From Gammaproteobacteria bacterium (lineage in GTDB: Bacteria > Pseudomonadota > Gammaproteobacteria > SZUA-229), in contig DATCTK010000012.1 of NCBI GenBank assembly GCA_036567985.1, positions 15,973-79,972 on the forward strand: a stretch of DNA of 64,000 bases. The letters run 5' to 3'. Each line of letters begins with the position of its first letter. Positions within the stretch are counted from its first letter, which is position 1. This document shows, in pieces, positions 40,777-60,820 of the stretch. The position numbers and the translations under genes are program-made. The notes under the pieces were generated by a model. The model searched no databases and was not told where the DNA came from. It worked only from the letters and a program-made list of their open reading frames with translations.

Positions 40777-42327
40777 ATGAGTAAAGACAAGTTAATTATA
40801 TTTGATACCACCTTGCGTGATGGCGAGCAGAGCCCCGGCGCGTCCATGACCAAAGACGAGAAAGTGCACATTGCCAAGGCGCTGGAGCGGATGCGGGTTG
40901 ACGTGATCGAGGCCGGATTCCCGATTGCCTCCCAGGGGGACTTCGAGGCGGTACAGGCGGTGGCCGAGGCGGTAAAGGACAGCACCGTATGCGGCCTGTC
41001 CCGTGCCCTGGAGCGTGATATCAGCCGTGCCGGTGAAGCACTGAAAAAGGCCAATTCGTCGCGTATTCACACCTTTATCGCCACATCGCCGATTCATATG
41101 GAAATGAAACTGCGCATGCAGCCGGATGATGTGTTGAAGCAGGCGGTGCAGGCAGTCAAAACCGCGCGCAAGTTCACCGACAATGTGGAGTTCTCGCCGG
41201 AAGATGCGGGTCGCTCCGAGCTGGATTTCCTCTGCCGTGTGATTGAAGCGGTGATCGATGCCGGTGCCCGCACCATTAATATTCCCGATACCGTGGGCTA
41301 TAACCTGCCTAACCAGTTCGGCACCTTGATCAAAAATTTGCGCGAACGCATCCCCAATTCCGACAAGGCCATCTTCTCGGTGCACTGTCACAATGACCTG
41401 GGGCTGGCGGTAGCCAACTCATTATCGGCGGTACAGAATGGCGCGCGCCAGGTGGAGTGCACCATTAATGGCCTGGGTGAGCGCGCCGGTAATGCGGCGC
41501 TGGAAGAAATCGTTATGGCGGTGCGCACCCGCCAGGACCTGTTTGATTGCGACACCACGCTGGATACCACACAGATCATGTCCTGCTCCAAGCTGGTGTC
41601 GGGCATTACCGGCTTCCCGGTGCAGCCCAACAAGGCGATTGTGGGTGCCAATGCCTTTGCCCATGAGTCCGGCATCCACCAGGACGGCGTACTCAAGAAC
41701 CGCGAAACCTATGAGATTATGCGCGCCCAGGATGTGGGCTGGAATGAAACCCAGATTGTGCTGGGCAAGCACTCCGGTCGCAATGCCCTGCGCAGCCGTC
41801 TCAAGGAACTGAATATTCTGGTCGATTCGGAAGAAGAGCTGAACCATGTGTTTGCCCGCTTTAAGGCGCTGGCAGACAAGAAGCATGAAATTTTCGATGA
41901 AGACCTGCAGACACTGGTGGCGGATGCCAGCTGGGATGCGGAAAACGAGAAGTACAAGCTGGTGAGCCTGAAAGTCTGCTCGGAAACCGGCGAAACACCC
42001 ATGGCGGATGTGGTGGTTCAGGTGAATGGCAAGGAACAGAGCGCTTCCGAGTCGGGCAGTGGTCCAGTAGATGCCGCCTTCAAGGCAATTGAAAACATCG
42101 TGCACAGCCAGACCGAGCTGAAACTCTACTCGGTCAACAATATCACCAGTGGCACAGATTCCCAGGGTGAGGTATCGGTTCGCCTGTCGAAAAACGGCAA
42201 GATCGTCAATGGCCAGGGTGCGGACACCGATATTGTTATCGCCTCTGCCAAGGCCTATATCAATGCGCTGAACCGCATTGTGGTGATGGAAAAAGAACGT
42301 GAGCACCCGCAGCTGGGTGATGTCTAG
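40777..42327 (+). CDS. leuA: 2-isopropylmalate synthase
   Basis: [33 protein letters not shown]. Confidence 0.97.
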
Positions 42328-42330
42328 GCG

Positions 42331-43197
42331 GTGAGTGACTCCTCGGCTGTAACACAACGGACTCCGCCTGCAGGCCAGCGCCCGCTGGCGGAGTCGTTAC
42401 GCCAGCAATACCTTGCTGCCATGGGCATTCAGGTCTGGTATGACCCGATGCAGCCTGTGCCTGTCCAGGGGGAGTCTGCCGCCGATATGGGGGATTCGAG
42501 CTCAGCAGCGGCTGAAGCAGCCTCAACGCAGGTGACAGAACCTGATGTGCAGCACCCGCCACAAGCGGCACCGCTTTCTCCATCAGATACTGTGACTGAT
42601 ACACCTGCGAGTGATATGCCCCTGGCTGATCTGCAACCGGCGCAACGTCAGCTCACGCTTGCCCAGCTCAATACACAGATCGAACAGTGTCAGCTGTGTG
42701 AACTGCACGCCAGCCGTGCCCATGCAGTATGTGGCGAGGGGAGTGCTGACGCGCGCCTGCTGATTATCAGCGATGCGCCGATCAGTGATCGGGCGCAGGA
42801 TGCACTGTTTGATGCAGCGGAAAAAAAGCTGTTGCAGGGCATGTTGCAGGCGATTGGCCTGGATCTGTCGCAGGTGTATCTCACCAGCCTGGTTAAATGT
42901 ATGCCGCCGCAGCGGGCACCCTATACCTCGGAAATGATCTGCTGTGATGACCACCTGAGTGCACAGATTAAACTGATACAGCCGGCGGCGATTATGCTGC
43001 TGGGTGAGCAGGCCAGTCGCCAGTTGCTGGTGAGCCAGAAGTCACTCACGGATTTGCGCCAGCGACATCACCAGCATCTCGGGGTGCCGGTGTATGCGTC
43101 CTATCATCCCCGCGACCTGCTGGGCTCGGCGCAGAACAAGCGCAAAGTCTGGCAGGATCTGCTACAAATAAAGCATCGTTTAACAACAGCTACATAG
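42331..43197 (+). CDS. Family-4 uracil-DNA glycosylase-like protein with a Pol III psi-like N-terminus
   Basis: RQQYLAAMGIQVW, low-complexity linker, CQLC...VKC...CC Fe-S ligands, YHP; catalytic motif A degenerate. Confidence 0.75.
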   Translation: MSDSSAVTQRTPPAGQRPLAESLRQQYLAAMGIQVWYDPMQPVPVQGESAADMGDSSSAAAEAASTQVTEPDVQHPPQAAPLSPSDTVTDTPASDMPLADLQPAQRQLTLAQLNTQIEQCQLCELHASRAHAVCGEGSADARLLIISDAPISDRAQDALFDAAEKKLLQGMLQAIGLDLSQVYLTSLVKCMPPQRAPYTSEMICCDDHLSAQIKLIQPAAIMLLGEQASRQLLVSQKSLTDLRQRHHQHLGVPVYASYHPRDLLGSAQNKRKVWQDLLQIKHRLTTAT

Positions 43198-43199
43198 AC

Positions 43200-43694
43200 A
43201 TGGCAGTAAATCCCGATATTGATCTGGCCAACGGCTTTCGCAAAATGACTCTGGGCGATGTACCGGAGATTATGCAAATCGAGGAATCGATTTATAGTCA
43301 CCCCTGGACCGAAGGCATCTTTGGCGACTGTATCCGCGTGGGTTATCCCTGCTGGGTGTACAGGGAGAACAACGAAATTCTTGCCTATGGACTGGTGTCG
43401 GTTGCTGCCAATGAAGCGCATATTCTGAACCTGTGTGTCAGTCCTCATGCGCAGGGGCGAGGGCTGGGTAAACGCATGTTGCATAAGCTGATGCAGCTGG
43501 CCGAAGCGCGGGATGCGGACTGTATTTTTCTTGAAGTCAGGGTGTCTAACACCATTGCGCAAAACCTGTATGAGCAGGAAGGTTTTAACCATATCGGTGT
43601 CAGAAAAGCCTATTACCCCTCCAGCGAAGGTCGTGAAGATGCACTGGTATATGCCAAAGCGCTTAATCTCGACAAGCTCAGCCCTGTCTCATAG
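43200..43694 (+). CDS. rimI: Ribosomal protein S18 alanine N-acetyltransferase
   Basis: HPW, EAHILNLCV, QGRGLG, FLEVRVSN, RKAYY, REDA. Confidence 0.92.
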   Translation: MAVNPDIDLANGFRKMTLGDVPEIMQIEESIYSHPWTEGIFGDCIRVGYPCWVYRENNEILAYGLVSVAANEAHILNLCVSPHAQGRGLGKRMLHKLMQLAEARDADCIFLEVRVSNTIAQNLYEQEGFNHIGVRKAYYPSSEGREDALVYAKALNLDKLSPVS

Positions 43695-43800: not shown

Positions 43801-45396
43801 ATGTCTGAACTTATCCAGCAAATGCAGCGTCGTCGCACCTTTGCCATTATCTCCCACCCGGATGCGGGTAAAACCACCCTGACTGAAAAACTGCTGTTAT
43901 TCAGCGGTGCGATTCAGCTGGCGGGCACGGTAAAAGGCCGTAAGGCGGCACGGCATGCAACTTCCGACTGGATGGAGCTGGAAAAGCAACGGGGTATTTC
44001 GGTAACCTCATCGGTAATGCAGTTTCCCCATAATGACTGCATTATCAATTTACTGGACACACCAGGTCACGCCGACTTCTCCGAGGATACCTACCGCACC
44101 CTGACCGCGGTGGATTCGGCGCTGATGGTAATTGATGCCGCCAAGGGCGTTGAGGAACGCACCATCAAGTTAATGGATGTGTGTCGTTTGCGTGACACAC
44201 CGATTATTACCTTTGTTAATAAACTTGACCGCGAATCCCGTGAGCCGGTGGAGTTACTGGATGATGTGGAAAATATTCTGAACATTCAGTGTGCGCCCAT
44301 GACATGGCCAATTGGTATGGGCAAAAACTTCAAGGGTGTGTTCCATTTATATAACAACTGTGTTCATTTGTTTAGCGCAACCCACGGCGGAAAGATTCAA
44401 CAGGGCCAGGTTATCGAAGGGCTGGATAATCCCGAGCTGGATGAGCTGCTGGGCAGTATGGCGCAGGAACTGCGTGATGAAATAGAACTGGTGAAAGGTG
44501 CCAGCCACGAGTTTGATTTGCAGGCCTATCGTGAAGGCAGGTTAACGCCGGTATTTTTCGGCTCGGCCATTAATAATTTTGGTATCAGGGAATTGCTCGA
44601 CTCACTGGATGAGTTCGCACCACCGCCCAAAGCCCGTGATGCCGGTGCACGTATTGTCGAACCGGATGAAGAAAAGTTCACCGGTTTTGTATTCAAAATC
44701 CAGGCGAATATGGATCCACAGCACCGTGACCGGGTCGCCTTTATGCGGGTCTGCTCCGGCAAGTTTGAAAAGGGCATGAAAGTTAAACATGTGCGTATTC
44801 AGAAAGAGGTGAAACTGAATGACGCGGTTACCTTTATGGCCTCTGATCGCGGCCATGCGGATGTGGCTTACGCCGGTGATATTATCGGTATTCATAATCA
44901 TGGCACGATTCGCATTGGCGATACCTTTACCAAGGGTGAAGACCTGCAGTTTGCCGGCATTCCAAACTTCGCGCCCGAGCTGTTCCGTCGTGCGCAATTG
45001 CGTGATCCGTTGAAAATGAAGGCACTGCAAAAGGGTCTGATTCAGTTATGTGAAGAAGGTGCAACGCAGCTGTATCGTCCGCTGAATAATAATGACCTGA
45101 TTCTGGGTGCGGTGGGTGTGCTGCAGTTTGATGTGGTGGCGCACCGACTGCAACACGAGTACAACGTTGAATGCAGTTTTGAAAACGTCAGTGTAACCAC
45201 CGCGCGCTGGGTTGAATGTGATGATGAAAAAATGCTGAATCAGTTCAGGCAGAAAGCTTCACCCAATCTGGCACTCGATCATGCGGGGGACCTGGTCTAT
45301 ATCGCACCCACCCGGGTGAATCTGGATATGACCCAGGAACGCTGGCCGGATATTCGCTTCCTGGCAACCCGTGAACATGCCAGTTACGAACTGTAA
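43801..45396 (+). CDS. prfC: Peptide chain release factor 3
   Basis: [25 protein letters not shown]. Confidence 0.97.
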
Positions 45397-59806: not shown

Positions 59807-60352
59807 CTAATTGCTATCGCGCTGGCATTTGAAATGGCGGTACAGGTTCTGTTTAAGCTGTTCGGCAATATCCGGCAGCAGTTCATCCACCGCCTGGTCG
59901 ATTTGCTGGCGCGTGGTTGCTAGCGTGCTGGCGGCCTGTTGTTCAGTCTCATCCACGGGTATCCGGGTCGACGGTGAGGTGACTTCCTGTACATCCAGTT
60001 CAAGGTATTCATCGGTTTCATCGGTTGCTGTGTCGTCTTCCACCAGTGCCGGGTCAAAGGGCGCCAGTTCCGCTGGAACCTGATCGATTTCTACCGCAGC
60101 AATCTGCAATGGATCAGAAAATGGATCAGAATCGGCCGGGTCTTCGCTGCCGATCTCATCGTTTGCCAGTTCCACCTTGCTTAAGGCGTCTGCGGAAAAT
60201 GCATCATTATGGGATGCATTTATGTCGGTAGCTGCCCAATTGTCCTCTTCATCGATACTGAACTGGTGCGCATCAAAGTGATGGTACATGTCTTCATCAC
60301 CGGTGCGGATAAAATCGGTGAGAGTCGGAATGTCCTGATCGCTATGGCTCAT
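59807..60352 (-). CDS. Acidic, largely disordered hypothetical protein downstream of holC
   Basis: DIPTLTD N-terminal motif, D/E-rich linker, C-terminal amphipathic helix. Confidence 0.7.
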   Translation of the reverse strand: MSHSDQDIPTLTDFIRTGDEDMYHHFDAHQFSIDEEDNWAATDINASHNDAFSADALSKVELANDEIGSEDPADSDPFSDPLQIAAVEIDQVPAELAPFDPALVEDDTATDETDEYLELDVQEVTSPSTRIPVDETEQQAASTLATTRQQIDQAVDELLPDIAEQLKQNLYRHFKCQRDSN

Positions 60353-60379: not shown

Positions 60380-60820
60380 TCAGGGCTGCAGGGTGTGGTG
60401 TTGCAGGCTGTAGCCCCGTTCGCGGTAGATTTTATAGTGCGCCCGCCCGCTTTGCTTGCGTTGCTCGTCCTGATTGAGAATTTCCTCAATCTGTAGCGCT
60501 TTGTCTGGTTCTGTAATATCGCAGGGGCGAGAGGACAGGTTAAGCACCACATCAAATCGGCTGTCATTCACGGCCTGGTTAGCGATCAGAATCGGCTGTT
60601 GCTGATCAACCGGTTCTAGCGTGGCAATGCCGTGGGGAATAAAACTGTCTGCCTGCAGATTCCACAACAGTTCATCCAGCTGCTGGCTGTCTTCGACAGA
60701 GTCCGTCTGCACCAGTACATGCTTGCCCGTTGACCAGTGTTGCTGCGCCAGCTTGCAGGCATACTGCTGCAGGCTGGCCTGCTCGCTATCCGCTAAAATG
60801 TAGAAATCTACATGGGGCAT
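60380..60820 (-). CDS. holC: DNA polymerase III chi subunit
   Basis: VDFYIL, LDELLW...DSFIPH, YRERGY; pepA-holC synteny. Confidence 0.92.
   Translation of the reverse strand: MPHVDFYILADSEQASLQQYACKLAQQHWSTGKHVLVQTDSVEDSQQLDELLWNLQADSFIPHGIATLEPVDQQQPILIANQAVNDSRFDVVLNLSSRPCDITEPDKALQIEEILNQDEQRKQSGRAHYKIYRERGYSLQHHTLQP

What the first reader, a model, noticed from the sequence alone, without database searches (positions are those of the whole stretch)
42331..43197. Degenerate family-4 UDG with a Pol III psi-like N-terminus at the holD position
Seen: the N-terminal RQQYLAAMGIQVW is joined by a P/A/S/D-rich linker to a UDG4-like domain. That domain keeps four Fe-S cysteines and YHP, but has ISDAP in place of GEAPG/GEGPG, lacks F.G.AG, and has TSLVKC in place of N..KC. 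The gene order is this gene-rimI-prfC. Established: E. coli has holD-rimI-yjjG-prfC, and the psi N-terminal peptide (QLQQLGITQW) binds the clamp loader. holC (chi) is also in this window. Inference: this may be the functional psi subunit with an Fe-S UDG-fold body that has lost glycosylase activity, a possible link between UDG4 and psi.
Basis: partly seen in the sequence, partly recalled or inferred. Interest (0 to 1): 0.65.

Follow-up and report, generated by a model that had tools for sequence, protein, structure and literature searches.

The report
Psi subunit with decayed glycosylase body
In the slot where E. coli encodes the psi subunit of its DNA-replication clamp loader, this sulfur-oxidising bacterium encodes an iron-sulfur uracil-glycosylase-fold protein that keeps psi's docking peptide but has a decayed active site, a natural intermediate suggesting that psi descends from a DNA-repair enzyme.

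Summary
ORF 42331-43197 (288 aa, GTG start) has three parts:
- a conserved N-terminal peptide (LRQQYLAAMGIQVWYDP);
- a 66-residue acidic, P/A/S-rich disordered linker;
- a family-4 UDG fold that keeps four Fe-S cysteines and the motif-2 histidine, but reads SDAPI for GEAPG, Ser for Asn80, and lacks the PFVGxAG glycines and Asn89.

It lies in leuA-X-rimI-prfC. The 95%-complete genome has no canonical holD, and holC is confirmed.

Across 201 gammaproteobacterial families, 152 carry a UDG4-type protein. In 28 of the 29 read, the same peptide is fused to an intact UDG4. Pfam psi occurs in only 7, none with a separate UDG-type gene, and two read loci share the leuA-psi-rimI slot.

Peptide-free profiles link Pfam-certified psi bodies to the UDG4 domain (E 1e-10 to 1e-11; hhalign 93-98%). 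A psi-family profile's only non-psi PDB hit is Thermus UDGA.

Within the window's own family the peptide is present in 31/31, while the catalytic motifs decayed at least twice.

Best reading: this is the local psi, with the glycosylase pocket relaxed. Caveats: Foldseek does not link E. coli psi to UDG, and no binding or activity was tested. I found no paper describing the link.

The parts
42331..43197 (+). Whole ORF, 288 aa plus stop: psi-type protein with a UDG4-fold body
   Evidence: The GTG start is the only standard start upstream of the conserved peptide. The automatic gene call (P0001, 258 aa) starts at M31 and cuts the peptide.
42385..42447 (+). Residues 19-39, LAESLRQQYLAAMGIQVWYDP: psi-type clamp-loader (DnaX collar) docking peptide
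   Evidence: Near-invariant in 21 homologues. Present in 31/31 members of the taxonomic family. PF03603 profile positions 4-28 match it. A profile of UDG-fused peptides finds the psi N-terminus as the top genome-wide hit in 6 of 8 psi-bearing genomes. The model has a helix at residues 21-30.
42448..42645 (+). Residues 40-105: disordered linker rich in A/P/S/Q/D, net charge -10
   Evidence: pLDDT below 50 for residues 45-93. Variable in length and sequence among homologues. Composition.
42646..43194 (+). Residues 106-288: family-4 UDG fold domain
   Evidence: PF03167 6.2e-23. 1ui0 at 6.4e-26 by sequence. Foldseek 1ui0 2.1e-11, TM 0.74 on the target.
42688..42699 (+). C120-x-x-C123, the first two Fe-S ligands
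   Evidence: Invariant. Aligned to Tth C13/C16.
42769..42783 (+). S147-D-A-P-I151, the remnant of motif 1 (GE[A/G]PG)
   Evidence: Variable among genus members (SDAPI/L, IDAPL/V, TDAPV, VHAPG, VSSPA), which indicates relaxed constraint.
42883..42900 (+). T-S186-L-V-K-C190: Asn80 (uracil N3/O4 contact) replaced by Ser; C190 is the third Fe-S ligand
   Evidence: Ser in 9/9 genus members.
42937..42945 (+). I203-C204-C205, the fourth Fe-S ligand region
   Evidence: C205 invariant and C204 near-invariant.
43102..43110 (+). Y258-H259-P260: the motif-2 histidine is kept, but the HPAYLLR wedge is lost (HPRDLLG)
43138..43164 (+). K270-RKVWQDLL278: C-terminal helix shared with canonical psi (E. coli ARAALWQQI); its Trp is one of only four invariant columns of the psi alignment
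40777..42327 (+). leuA, conserved upstream neighbour
   Evidence: leuA is in the locus in 71/80 and 25/29 related loci, and also upstream of canonical psi in L085 and L087.
43200..43694 (+). rimI, starting 2 nt after the stop, as downstream of holD in E. coli
   Evidence: rimI is directly downstream on the same strand in 70/80 and 26/29 related loci.
43801..45396 (+). prfC (RF3)
60380..60820 (-). holC (chi), the expected partner, next to pepA
   Evidence: PF04364 2.7e-33. Sub-cut-off NCBIfam chi models. pepA-like neighbour.

Best explanation
This gene is the organism's holD: the psi subunit of the DNA polymerase III clamp loader, in an ancestral-type architecture.

Residues about 19-39 form the natively unstructured or short-helical peptide. 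[quoted passage not shown]

A 66-residue acidic flexible linker follows. Then comes a [4Fe-4S] family-4 UDG fold, which is inferred to be the body that binds chi (HolC). Chi in turn binds the SSB C-terminal tail.

In most Gammaproteobacteria the same peptide is attached to a UDG4 with all catalytic motifs intact. In this genus the uracil pocket has decayed, while the fold, the Fe-S ligands and the peptide stay under constraint. The protein therefore most likely works as a structural clamp-loader subunit with little or no uracil excision. Ung, encoded elsewhere in the genome, covers uracil repair.

Shown here: the architecture, motif states, synteny, homology to psi bodies, and complementary distribution with canonical psi.

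Inferred: docking on DnaX, binding of chi, presence of the cluster, and loss of activity.
For: 1. The peptide is conserved while everything else drifts. It is present in 31/31 members of the window's family. GE[AG]PG is intact in 10/31, Asn80 in 20/31, and both in 0/9 of its own genus.

2. Positional orthology. rimI lies directly downstream in 70/80 and 26/29 related loci. Pfam-certified psi loci L085 and L087 have the same leuA-psi-rimI order, and E. coli has holD-rimI-yjjG-prfC.

3. No other psi in the genome. chi is present.

4. Complementary distribution in 201 gammaproteobacterial families. PF03603 psi occurs in 7 and the UDG type in 152. None of the 7 has a separate UDG-type gene, and in G041 and G004 the UDG-type profile hits the psi gene itself. 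By my arithmetic the hypergeometric p is about 4e-5.

5. Body homology without the peptide:
- A UDG4-domain HMM hits the Pfam-certified psi bodies L089 (2.6e-11) and L087 (1.4e-10), plus L091 and L124, in a 25.7k-sequence database with no decoy hits.
- hhalign of psi bodies against this family gives 93% (P 3.5e-7), and against intact UDG4-psi gives 97.4% (P 1.2e-11). Reversed controls give P > 0.4.
- A3 against A1 gives 98.4%, E 5e-15, on body columns.
- The psi-family profile's only non-psi hit among 177,635 PDB sequences is Thermus UDGA, which lacks the peptide (1.8e-4).

6. A peptide profile built only from UDG-fused proteins finds the psi N-terminus as the best genome-wide hit in 6 of 8 psi genomes, four of them at E <= 1e-3.

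7. UDG4s outside Proteobacteria (Thermus, Acidobacteriota, Gracilibacteria) lack the peptide.

8. Pocket residues shown by mutagenesis to matter in Tth UDGa (E41, E47, N80, N89; PMC5387724) are replaced. They also differ among genus members, and the genus clade sits on a long stem of 0.71 changes per column.

9. Precedent: the experimentally proven P. aeruginosa psi has the same layout, with an N-terminal docking region, a long disordered segment and a C-terminal core. It too was mis-started by annotators (PMC3197488, PMC8879598).
Against: - No binding or activity was tested.
- Foldseek with an E. coli psi model finds only psi chains and no UDG. Psi is not among the top 50 matches of this protein's model.
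- E. coli-type short psi bodies alone match UDG profiles only weakly (P 0.004-0.03, probability 2-8%). The link depends on intermediates.
- An HMM of canonical psi peptides ranks this ORF third of 25,673 ORFs at E 1.8, which is not significant on its own. PF03603 is below its cut-off.
- H259, the Fe-S cysteines and an invariant Ser186 are conserved, so a changed rather than lost enzymatic function is possible.
- The assembly is 95% complete.
- That a UDG4 fold offers chi the same surface as E. coli psi is assumed, not shown.
Confidence: 0.72

Rival explanations
1. It is psi and still an enzyme. On this reading it is a clamp-loader-tethered Fe-S DNA glycosylase, or a non-cleaving lesion binder, whose pocket was remodelled for another substrate rather than decayed.
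For: H259 (the main catalytic residue, H155 in Tth UDGa; PMC5387724), all four cysteines and Ser186 are invariant in the clade. The domain is strongly conserved, for example TSEMICCDDHL, LLVSQKSLxDLRxR and KRKVWxDLL. In this window the E41 position holds the conservative Asp, and F160 is kept.
Against: The motif-1 positions differ among species of one genus (D/H/S at the E41 position, I/L/V/G/A at G44). The E47 and F54 positions vary too, which is not what a new specific pocket would show. Asn89 and the HPAYLLR wedge are lost. Related genera lose different residues, including H155 itself in L146 and L147.
Confidence: 0.18
2. It is only a diverged family-4 UDG paralogue with an unrelated N-terminal extension. 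On this reading psi is absent, or is an unrecognised protein elsewhere.
For: PF03603 is below threshold, and the canonical-psi peptide HMM is not significant genome-wide. Foldseek sees only UDGs. The databases name relatives 'uracil-DNA glycosylase'.
Against: The extension is the most conserved part of the protein across the class. The gene occupies the holD slot. It is mutually exclusive with Pfam psi. Psi bodies are themselves UDG4 homologues. It is single-copy, in 57 of 61 genomes of the family.
Confidence: 0.07
3. The N-terminal peptide docks on a partner other than the DnaX collar, such as the beta clamp or SSB, so that a UDG-fold protein is recruited to forks independently of the clamp loader.
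For: No structure or binding data exist for any UDG-fused peptide. Only 5 of 16 core positions are identical to E. coli psi.
Against: The motif is continuous in sequence space with canonical psi N-termini, whose binding across the three gamma collars is known structurally (3GLI, 8GIY; PMC11436948). It has no QL[SD]LF-type clamp-binding motif.
Confidence: 0.03

Closest known systems
E. coli DNA polymerase III psi subunit (HolD; Pfam PF03603; PDB 1EM8, 3SXU, 3GLI, 8GIY)
   Same: The N-terminal docking motif is shared (xLxxMGIxxW against QLQQLGITQW). Both genes lie immediately upstream of rimI and are single-copy, with chi present. The order of secondary-structure elements is the same (beta1-alpha-beta2-beta3-beta4-C-terminal helix), as are the LLxxxLxAI helix and the C-terminal Trp helix.
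   Different: This protein is twice as long (288 against 137 aa). It has a 66-residue linker, the N-terminal CxxC helix, the Fe-S loop and the motif-2 histidine, all of which E. coli psi lacks. It scores below the Pfam cut-off. Foldseek does not connect the two folds.
Pseudomonas aeruginosa 'cryptic' psi (PA4679, 278 aa; Jarvis et al. 2005 JBC; PMC3197488; PMC8879598)
   Same: Both have a long form with a docking N-terminus, a large disordered segment and a C-terminal core. Both were undetectable by ordinary homology search, both had the start codon called too far downstream, and both lie next to rimI (the rimI adjacency is from my own knowledge).
   Different: I could not obtain the P. aeruginosa sequence, which is given only as a figure. 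Its relation to the UDG4 fold is therefore untested here. No Fe-S cluster has been reported for it.
Family-4 uracil-DNA glycosylase (UdgA; Thermus thermophilus 1UI0, Thermotoga maritima 1L9G, Sulfolobus tokodaii 4ZBX)
   Same: The fold, the four cluster cysteines and the motif-2 His are shared, with 30-34% identity over about 185 residues.
   Different: Motif 1, Asn80, Asn89, the PFVGxAG glycines and the HPAYLLR wedge are lost. The N-terminal peptide and linker are added. It scores just below the TIGR00758 cut-off.
Peptide-bearing intact UDG4 of other Gammaproteobacteria (e.g. Sedimenticola selenatireducens DSM 17993, locus L028)
   Same: The peptide, linker, Fe-S UDG4 domain and leuA-X-rimI position are the same. 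These are orthologues.
   Different: They keep GEAPG, PFVGRAG, N-x-x-KC, NR and HPAYLLR, so they are probably active. The window's genus has lost all of these.
Vaccinia virus D4 UDG as a processivity-factor component, and herpesvirus UNG in the viral replisome (PMC1936997, PMC5934625)
   Same: A UDG-superfamily protein serves as a structural part of a replication machine, in vaccinia independently of catalysis (abstracts).
   Different: These belong to a different UDG family, with different partners (A20 and polymerase) and an independent origin. This is an analogy only.

Membership tests
Family-4 UDG (UdgA) | UDG-superfamily alpha/beta fold, closest to family 4 | tested here: met
   PF03167 6.2e-23. 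1ui0 at 6.4e-26 by sequence. Foldseek 1ui0/1l9g/4zby E about 1e-10 to 2e-11.
Family-4 UDG (UdgA) | Score at or above the curated TIGR00758 cut-off | tested here: not met
   123.4 bits against a cut-off of 125.3. NF040953 scores 104.7 against 250.
Family-4 UDG (UdgA) | Motif 1, G-E-[A/G]-P-G (the E41-G42 doublet) | tested here: not met
   S147-D-A-P-I151. Variable in the genus.
Family-4 UDG (UdgA) | Asn80, which makes bidentate H-bonds to uracil N3/O4 (N-x-x-K-C) | tested here: not met
   Ser186, in 9/9 genus members. The role of N80 is from PMC5387724.
Family-4 UDG (UdgA) | Asn89, the water-positioning residue of motif 3 | tested here: not met
   Deleted in the window protein (PPQ-RAP) and Q/D in relatives.
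Family-4 UDG (UdgA) | Phe54 stacking residue within P-F-V-G-x-A-G | tested here: inconclusive
   F160 is present here, but the position is L/Y/F in the clade and the glycines are lost.
Family-4 UDG (UdgA) | Motif-2 catalytic His (H155) in H-P-[A/S]-x-L-L-R | tested here: inconclusive
   H259-P260 are kept and invariant. The rest of the motif is lost (HPRDLLG).
Family-4 UDG (UdgA) | Four cysteines ligating a [4Fe-4S] cluster | tested here: met
   C120, C123, C190 and C205 are invariant. The cluster itself was not measured.
Family-4 UDG (UdgA) | Uracil excision from ssDNA and dsDNA | not testable with these tools
   Needs an enzyme assay.
DNA polymerase III psi (HolD, PF03603) | Score at or above the Pfam gathering cut-off | tested here: not met
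   17.2 bits against 22.2, on the N-terminal 26 residues only. No NCBIfam psi model hit.
DNA polymerase III psi (HolD, PF03603) | N-terminal DnaX-collar-binding peptide | tested here: met
   The motif is shared. The reciprocal profile test finds the psi N-terminus as the top hit in 6/8 genomes. The forward test alone is weak (rank 3 of 25,673, E 1.8).
DNA polymerase III psi (HolD, PF03603) | Globular body homologous to the psi body | tested here: met
   Met through intermediates. Not detectable against E. coli-type bodies alone or by Foldseek.
DNA polymerase III psi (HolD, PF03603) | Gene position directly upstream of rimI | tested here: met
DNA polymerase III psi (HolD, PF03603) | Single psi per genome, with chi present | tested here: met
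DNA polymerase III psi (HolD, PF03603) | 1:1 complex with chi, and binding to DnaX3-delta-delta' | not testable with these tools
   No multimer prediction or biochemistry was available.

The most novel reading that the evidence does not exclude
Psi is not an orphan fold. On this reading it is a decayed family-4 uracil-DNA glycosylase, and the long-'missing' psi of most Gammaproteobacteria is a UDG4 with all catalytic motifs intact, and so probably active, that rides on the clamp loader through psi's docking peptide.

In that picture the replisome ancestrally carried a uracil or lesion scanner next to SSB-coated template. This window's protein would be a caught-in-the-act intermediate: cluster and fold kept, chemistry lost. 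It could still act as a non-cleaving Fe-S DNA or lesion sensor at the fork.
Probability: 0.55. Interest if true: 0.85.

Novelty: new variant of a known kind. Interest (0 to 1): 0.78.

Why it matters
Psi has been treated as a small, taxonomically narrow accessory subunit of unknown origin. Its apparent absence from genomes that keep a psi-binding chi has been an open point since the chi-psi structure and the discovery of the Pseudomonas 'cryptic psi' (PMC3197488).

The data here identify the missing subunit for a large share of gammaproteobacterial families and give psi an evolutionary origin in a repair enzyme. They also supply a graded natural series: intact UDG4-psi, then this decayed Fe-S form, then 150-175-aa intermediates, then the 137-aa E. 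coli psi.

This makes several questions directly testable:
- which surface of the UDG fold binds chi;
- whether replisome-tethered uracil excision exists in bacteria;
- what the Fe-S cluster contributes once catalysis is gone.

There is a practical point too. Annotation pipelines label these genes 'uracil-DNA glycosylase' or 'DNA polymerase', and they often start them downstream of the docking peptide.

Tried and rejected
- The PF03603 hit elsewhere in the genome (C23, E 0.016) is a signal-peptide-bearing 255-aa protein next to bioA. I rejected it as psi.
- A Foldseek search with this protein's model gave UDG4, UdgX and UDGb hits only, with no psi among the 50 matches listed.
- A Foldseek search with an AlphaFold model of E. 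coli-type psi found only psi chains, then noise at E > 0.3. Fold search gives no support.
- hhalign with E. coli-type short psi bodies only was co-linear but not significant.
- An HMM of canonical psi peptides against all 25,673 ORFs of the genome ranked this ORF third, at E 1.8.
- I tried to obtain the P. aeruginosa psi sequence from PMC8879598. It is given only as an image, and the last homologue search returned no Pseudomonas entry.
- Five literature searches for a published psi-UDG link found nothing relevant.
It scores far below the family-4 cut-off (66 against 125 bits) and has GQAPG/HPSG motifs, so it is another UDG-superfamily member and not a family-4 enzyme.
Full report
**What is there.**
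The ORF at 42331-43197 (+) encodes 288 residues. It begins at a GTG one codon after the leuA stop, and no other standard start lies upstream of the conserved N-terminal motif.

Pfam gives a clear UDG-superfamily domain (PF03167, 6.2e-23, residues 135-277). It also gives a sub-threshold match of residues 24-49 to positions 4-28 of the psi model PF03603 (17.2 bits, cut-off 22.2). NCBIfam's family-4 UDG model scores 123.4 bits against a cut-off of 125.3.

The best solved relative is Thermus thermophilus UDGA (1ui0, 6.4e-26).
- GEGPG corresponds to S147-D-A-P-I151.
- PFVGKAG corresponds to LFDAAEK.
- Asn80 of T-N-IVKC is Ser186.
- Asn89 is deleted.
- His155 is kept as H259.
- The four cluster cysteines are kept.

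According to the mutational study of Tth UDGa, the uracil pocket is made of E41, G42, E47, F54, N80 and H155, and N89 positions the water. Single substitutions at E41, E47 and N80 cost 40- to 900-fold in k2/Km (PMC5387724).

An AlphaFold model (mean pLDDT 70) shows a short helix at residues 21-30, an unconfident segment at 45-93, and a confident alpha/beta domain. Foldseek matches that domain to family-4 UDGs (1ui0 at 2.1e-11), then to UdgX and family 5.

**Context.**
rimI starts 2 nt after the stop and prfC follows. E. coli K-12 has holD-rimI-yjjG-prfC, and its psi begins MTSRRDWQLQQLGITQW. holC (chi) is confirmed at 60380-60820 on the minus strand (PF04364, 2.7e-33), beside a pepA-like gene.

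The whole assembly is 2.9 Mb in 94 contigs and is 95% complete. It holds no canonical holD. The single weak PF03603 hit is a secreted 255-aa protein.

The genome has three UDG-superfamily genes:
- this one;
- a family-1 Ung (NF003589, 2.2e-96);
- a 211-aa Fe-S-type protein with GQAPG/HPSG motifs that reaches no family cut-off.

Uracil repair therefore does not depend on the gene under study.

**The family.**
Homologues down to 48% identity keep E21, R24, Y27, L28, M31, Q34, W36 and P39 invariant, while the linker changes in length and sequence. The automatic gene call for this very protein starts at M31 and removes half of the motif. The same error was documented for the experimentally proven P. 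aeruginosa psi (PMC8879598).

In a sample of one genome from each of 201 gammaproteobacterial families, 152 have a match to the family profile. This is nearly always a single gene with an open frame of 220-300 codons.

I read the 29 best loci. In 28 of them the same peptide (consensus R-x-x-Y-L-x-A-M-G-I-x-x-W-x-x-R) precedes a variable linker and a family-4 UDG with all motifs intact: GEAPG, PFVGRAG, N-x-x-KC, NR and HPAYLLR. UDG4s from Thermus, Acidobacteriota and Gracilibacteria lack the peptide.

The window's type is therefore a derived form of a very widespread peptide-plus-UDG4 protein.

**Is that protein psi?**
Five independent lines say yes.

1. Position. rimI lies directly downstream on the same strand in 70 of 80 and 26 of 29 related loci, and leuA lies upstream in most. 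Loci that score above the Pfam psi cut-off (L085, L087) have the same leuA-psi-rimI order.

2. Distribution. PF03603 psi is found in only 7 of the 201 families, and none of the 7 has a separate UDG-type gene. In two of them (G041, G004) the UDG-type profile hits the psi gene itself. By my arithmetic the hypergeometric chance of 0 in 7 is about 4e-5.

3. Body homology without the peptide.
   - An HMM of intact UDG4 domains was searched against 25,673 ORFs of this genome plus psi bodies with the peptide removed. It hits the Pfam-certified psi bodies L089 (2.6e-11) and L087 (1.4e-10), and the intermediates L091 and L124. There were no decoys.
   - hhalign gives 93% (P 3.5e-7) between psi bodies and this family, and 97.4% (P 1.2e-11) between psi bodies and the intact type. 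Reversed-sequence controls give P > 0.4.
   - The tool's own hhalign of the psi alignment A3 against A1 gives 98.4%, E 5e-15, over body columns.

4. A profile of the psi family was searched against all 177,635 distinct PDB sequences. It finds the psi chains and exactly one other protein, Thermus UDGA, which has no peptide (1.8e-4). The same profile, searched against 5.8 billion proteins, returns both 'DNA polymerase III subunit psi' entries and 'uracil-DNA glycosylase' entries.

5. The peptide. A 21-column profile built only from UDG-fused proteins finds the N-terminus of the psi gene as the best hit in the whole genome in 6 of 8 psi-bearing genomes, four of them at E <= 1e-3.

**Decay in the window's lineage.**
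The window's order is represented by a single taxonomic family, and 57 of its 61 genomes carry one orthologue. The peptide is present in 31 of 31 sequences read, and rimI adjacency is kept in all 30 relatives (the window's own adjacency is shown).

The catalytic motifs tell a different story:
- GE[AG]PG is intact in 10 of 31, and Asn80 in 20 of 31.
- In the window's own genus (9 of 9) motif 1, the PFVGxAG glycines, Asn80 and the LLR wedge are all gone, while the cysteines and the histidine remain.
- Motif 1 differs among species of the genus (SDAPI, IDAPL, TDAPV, VHAPG, VSSPA), which points to relaxed constraint rather than a new pocket.
- Other genera show separate losses. L146 and L147 have lost H155 itself, and L153 is heavily decayed.

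In a maximum-likelihood tree the genus forms a 100/99 clade on a long stem of 0.71 changes per column. Well-supported branches force at least two origins of the decayed state.

The conserved function of this orthologue group is thus carried by the peptide and the fold, not by uracil excision.

**Mechanism proposed.**
[quoted passage not shown] The psi N-terminal region is seen bound there in 3GLI and in the recent cryo-EM series (PMC11436948).

The acidic linker (residues 40-105, net charge -10) acts as a tether. The Fe-S UDG-fold body binds chi, which binds the SSB tail.

The order of secondary-structure elements is the same in the two models: beta1, the LLxxML helix, beta2, beta3, beta4 and the C-terminal Trp helix. 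E. coli psi lacks the CxxC helix and the cluster loop.

Docking on DnaX, binding of chi, presence of the cluster and loss of activity are all inferences.

**What speaks against.**
- Fold search does not help. The E. coli psi model finds only psi chains, and no psi chain appears among the 50 matches listed for this protein's model.
- E. coli-type short bodies alone are only weakly similar to UDG profiles, so the homology is transitive.
- The canonical psi peptide HMM alone ranks this ORF third of 25,673, at E 1.8.
- The invariant Ser186, H259 and cysteines leave room for a changed activity or for lesion binding.
- I could not place P. aeruginosa psi in the series, because its sequence was not obtainable.

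**Novelty.**
Five full-text searches found no paper linking psi to the UDG superfamily. The library lacks most subscription journals, so this is not proof of absence.

Earlier notes of this scan report the same idea in at least five other genomes, one of them a decayed form in Cycloclasticus. I formed my reading before seeing them, and I tested the claims independently here. They are not independent evidence.

I classify the gene as a new variant of a known kind. It is a psi subunit with an ancestral, Fe-S, UDG4-fold body whose glycosylase site has decayed.

Noticed in passing
window 42331-42423: The automatic gene call for this protein (P0001, 258 aa) starts at M31. That removes the first 30 residues and half of the conserved docking motif. 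The same mis-start was documented for P. aeruginosa holD (PMC8879598).
   Followed up: yes
L002 1414-2049 (-) = G000 contig C88: This is a second Fe-S-type UDG-superfamily gene (211 aa) with CxxC, GQAPG and HPSG motifs. It matches PF03167 at 2.5e-28, but reaches only 66-74 bits on family-4, archaeal and UdgX models whose cut-offs are 125-250. It is unclassified within the superfamily.
   Followed up: partly
window 59807-60352 (-): A 181-aa, very acidic ORF lies directly downstream of holC on the same strand. It has no Pfam match.
   Followed up: partly
L146, L147, L153 (genomes G224, G228, G250, same taxonomic family): These orthologues have different decay patterns from the window's genus. 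L146 reads SLSPKQLL and L147 reads SHPPAHL where motif 2 YHPAYLL should be, so the catalytic His is lost. L153 has STAPA and T-S-LLKC. All three keep the peptide and rimI.
   Followed up: partly
L124 (G086), L087 (G004), L089 (G049), L091 (G041): These are 156-175-aa psi proteins that still show UDG4 remnants. Examples are ATYHPIDLLRQPANKRNAW in L124, and LLLVFGQSAIEAL...KASVWQDL in L087. L087 and L089 score above the Pfam psi cut-off. They are the sequence bridges between UDG4 and E. coli-type psi.
   Followed up: yes
L123 (G191 C25): A 346-aa frame has a decayed UDG-like C-terminal domain (T-S-VLKC, THALEDLL). It is preceded by an (LRELL)n repeat and a masked stretch. Only a truncated trace of the docking motif (MGIxxW, here WVLPSGS) lies at the very start of the frame, upstream of any methionine. 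It may be another decayed psi with an expanded linker.
   Followed up: no
class sample: 43 of 201 gammaproteobacterial families matched neither PF03603 nor the UDG-type profile. Their psi, if any, is still unidentified. The Pseudomonas type may be among them.
   Followed up: no
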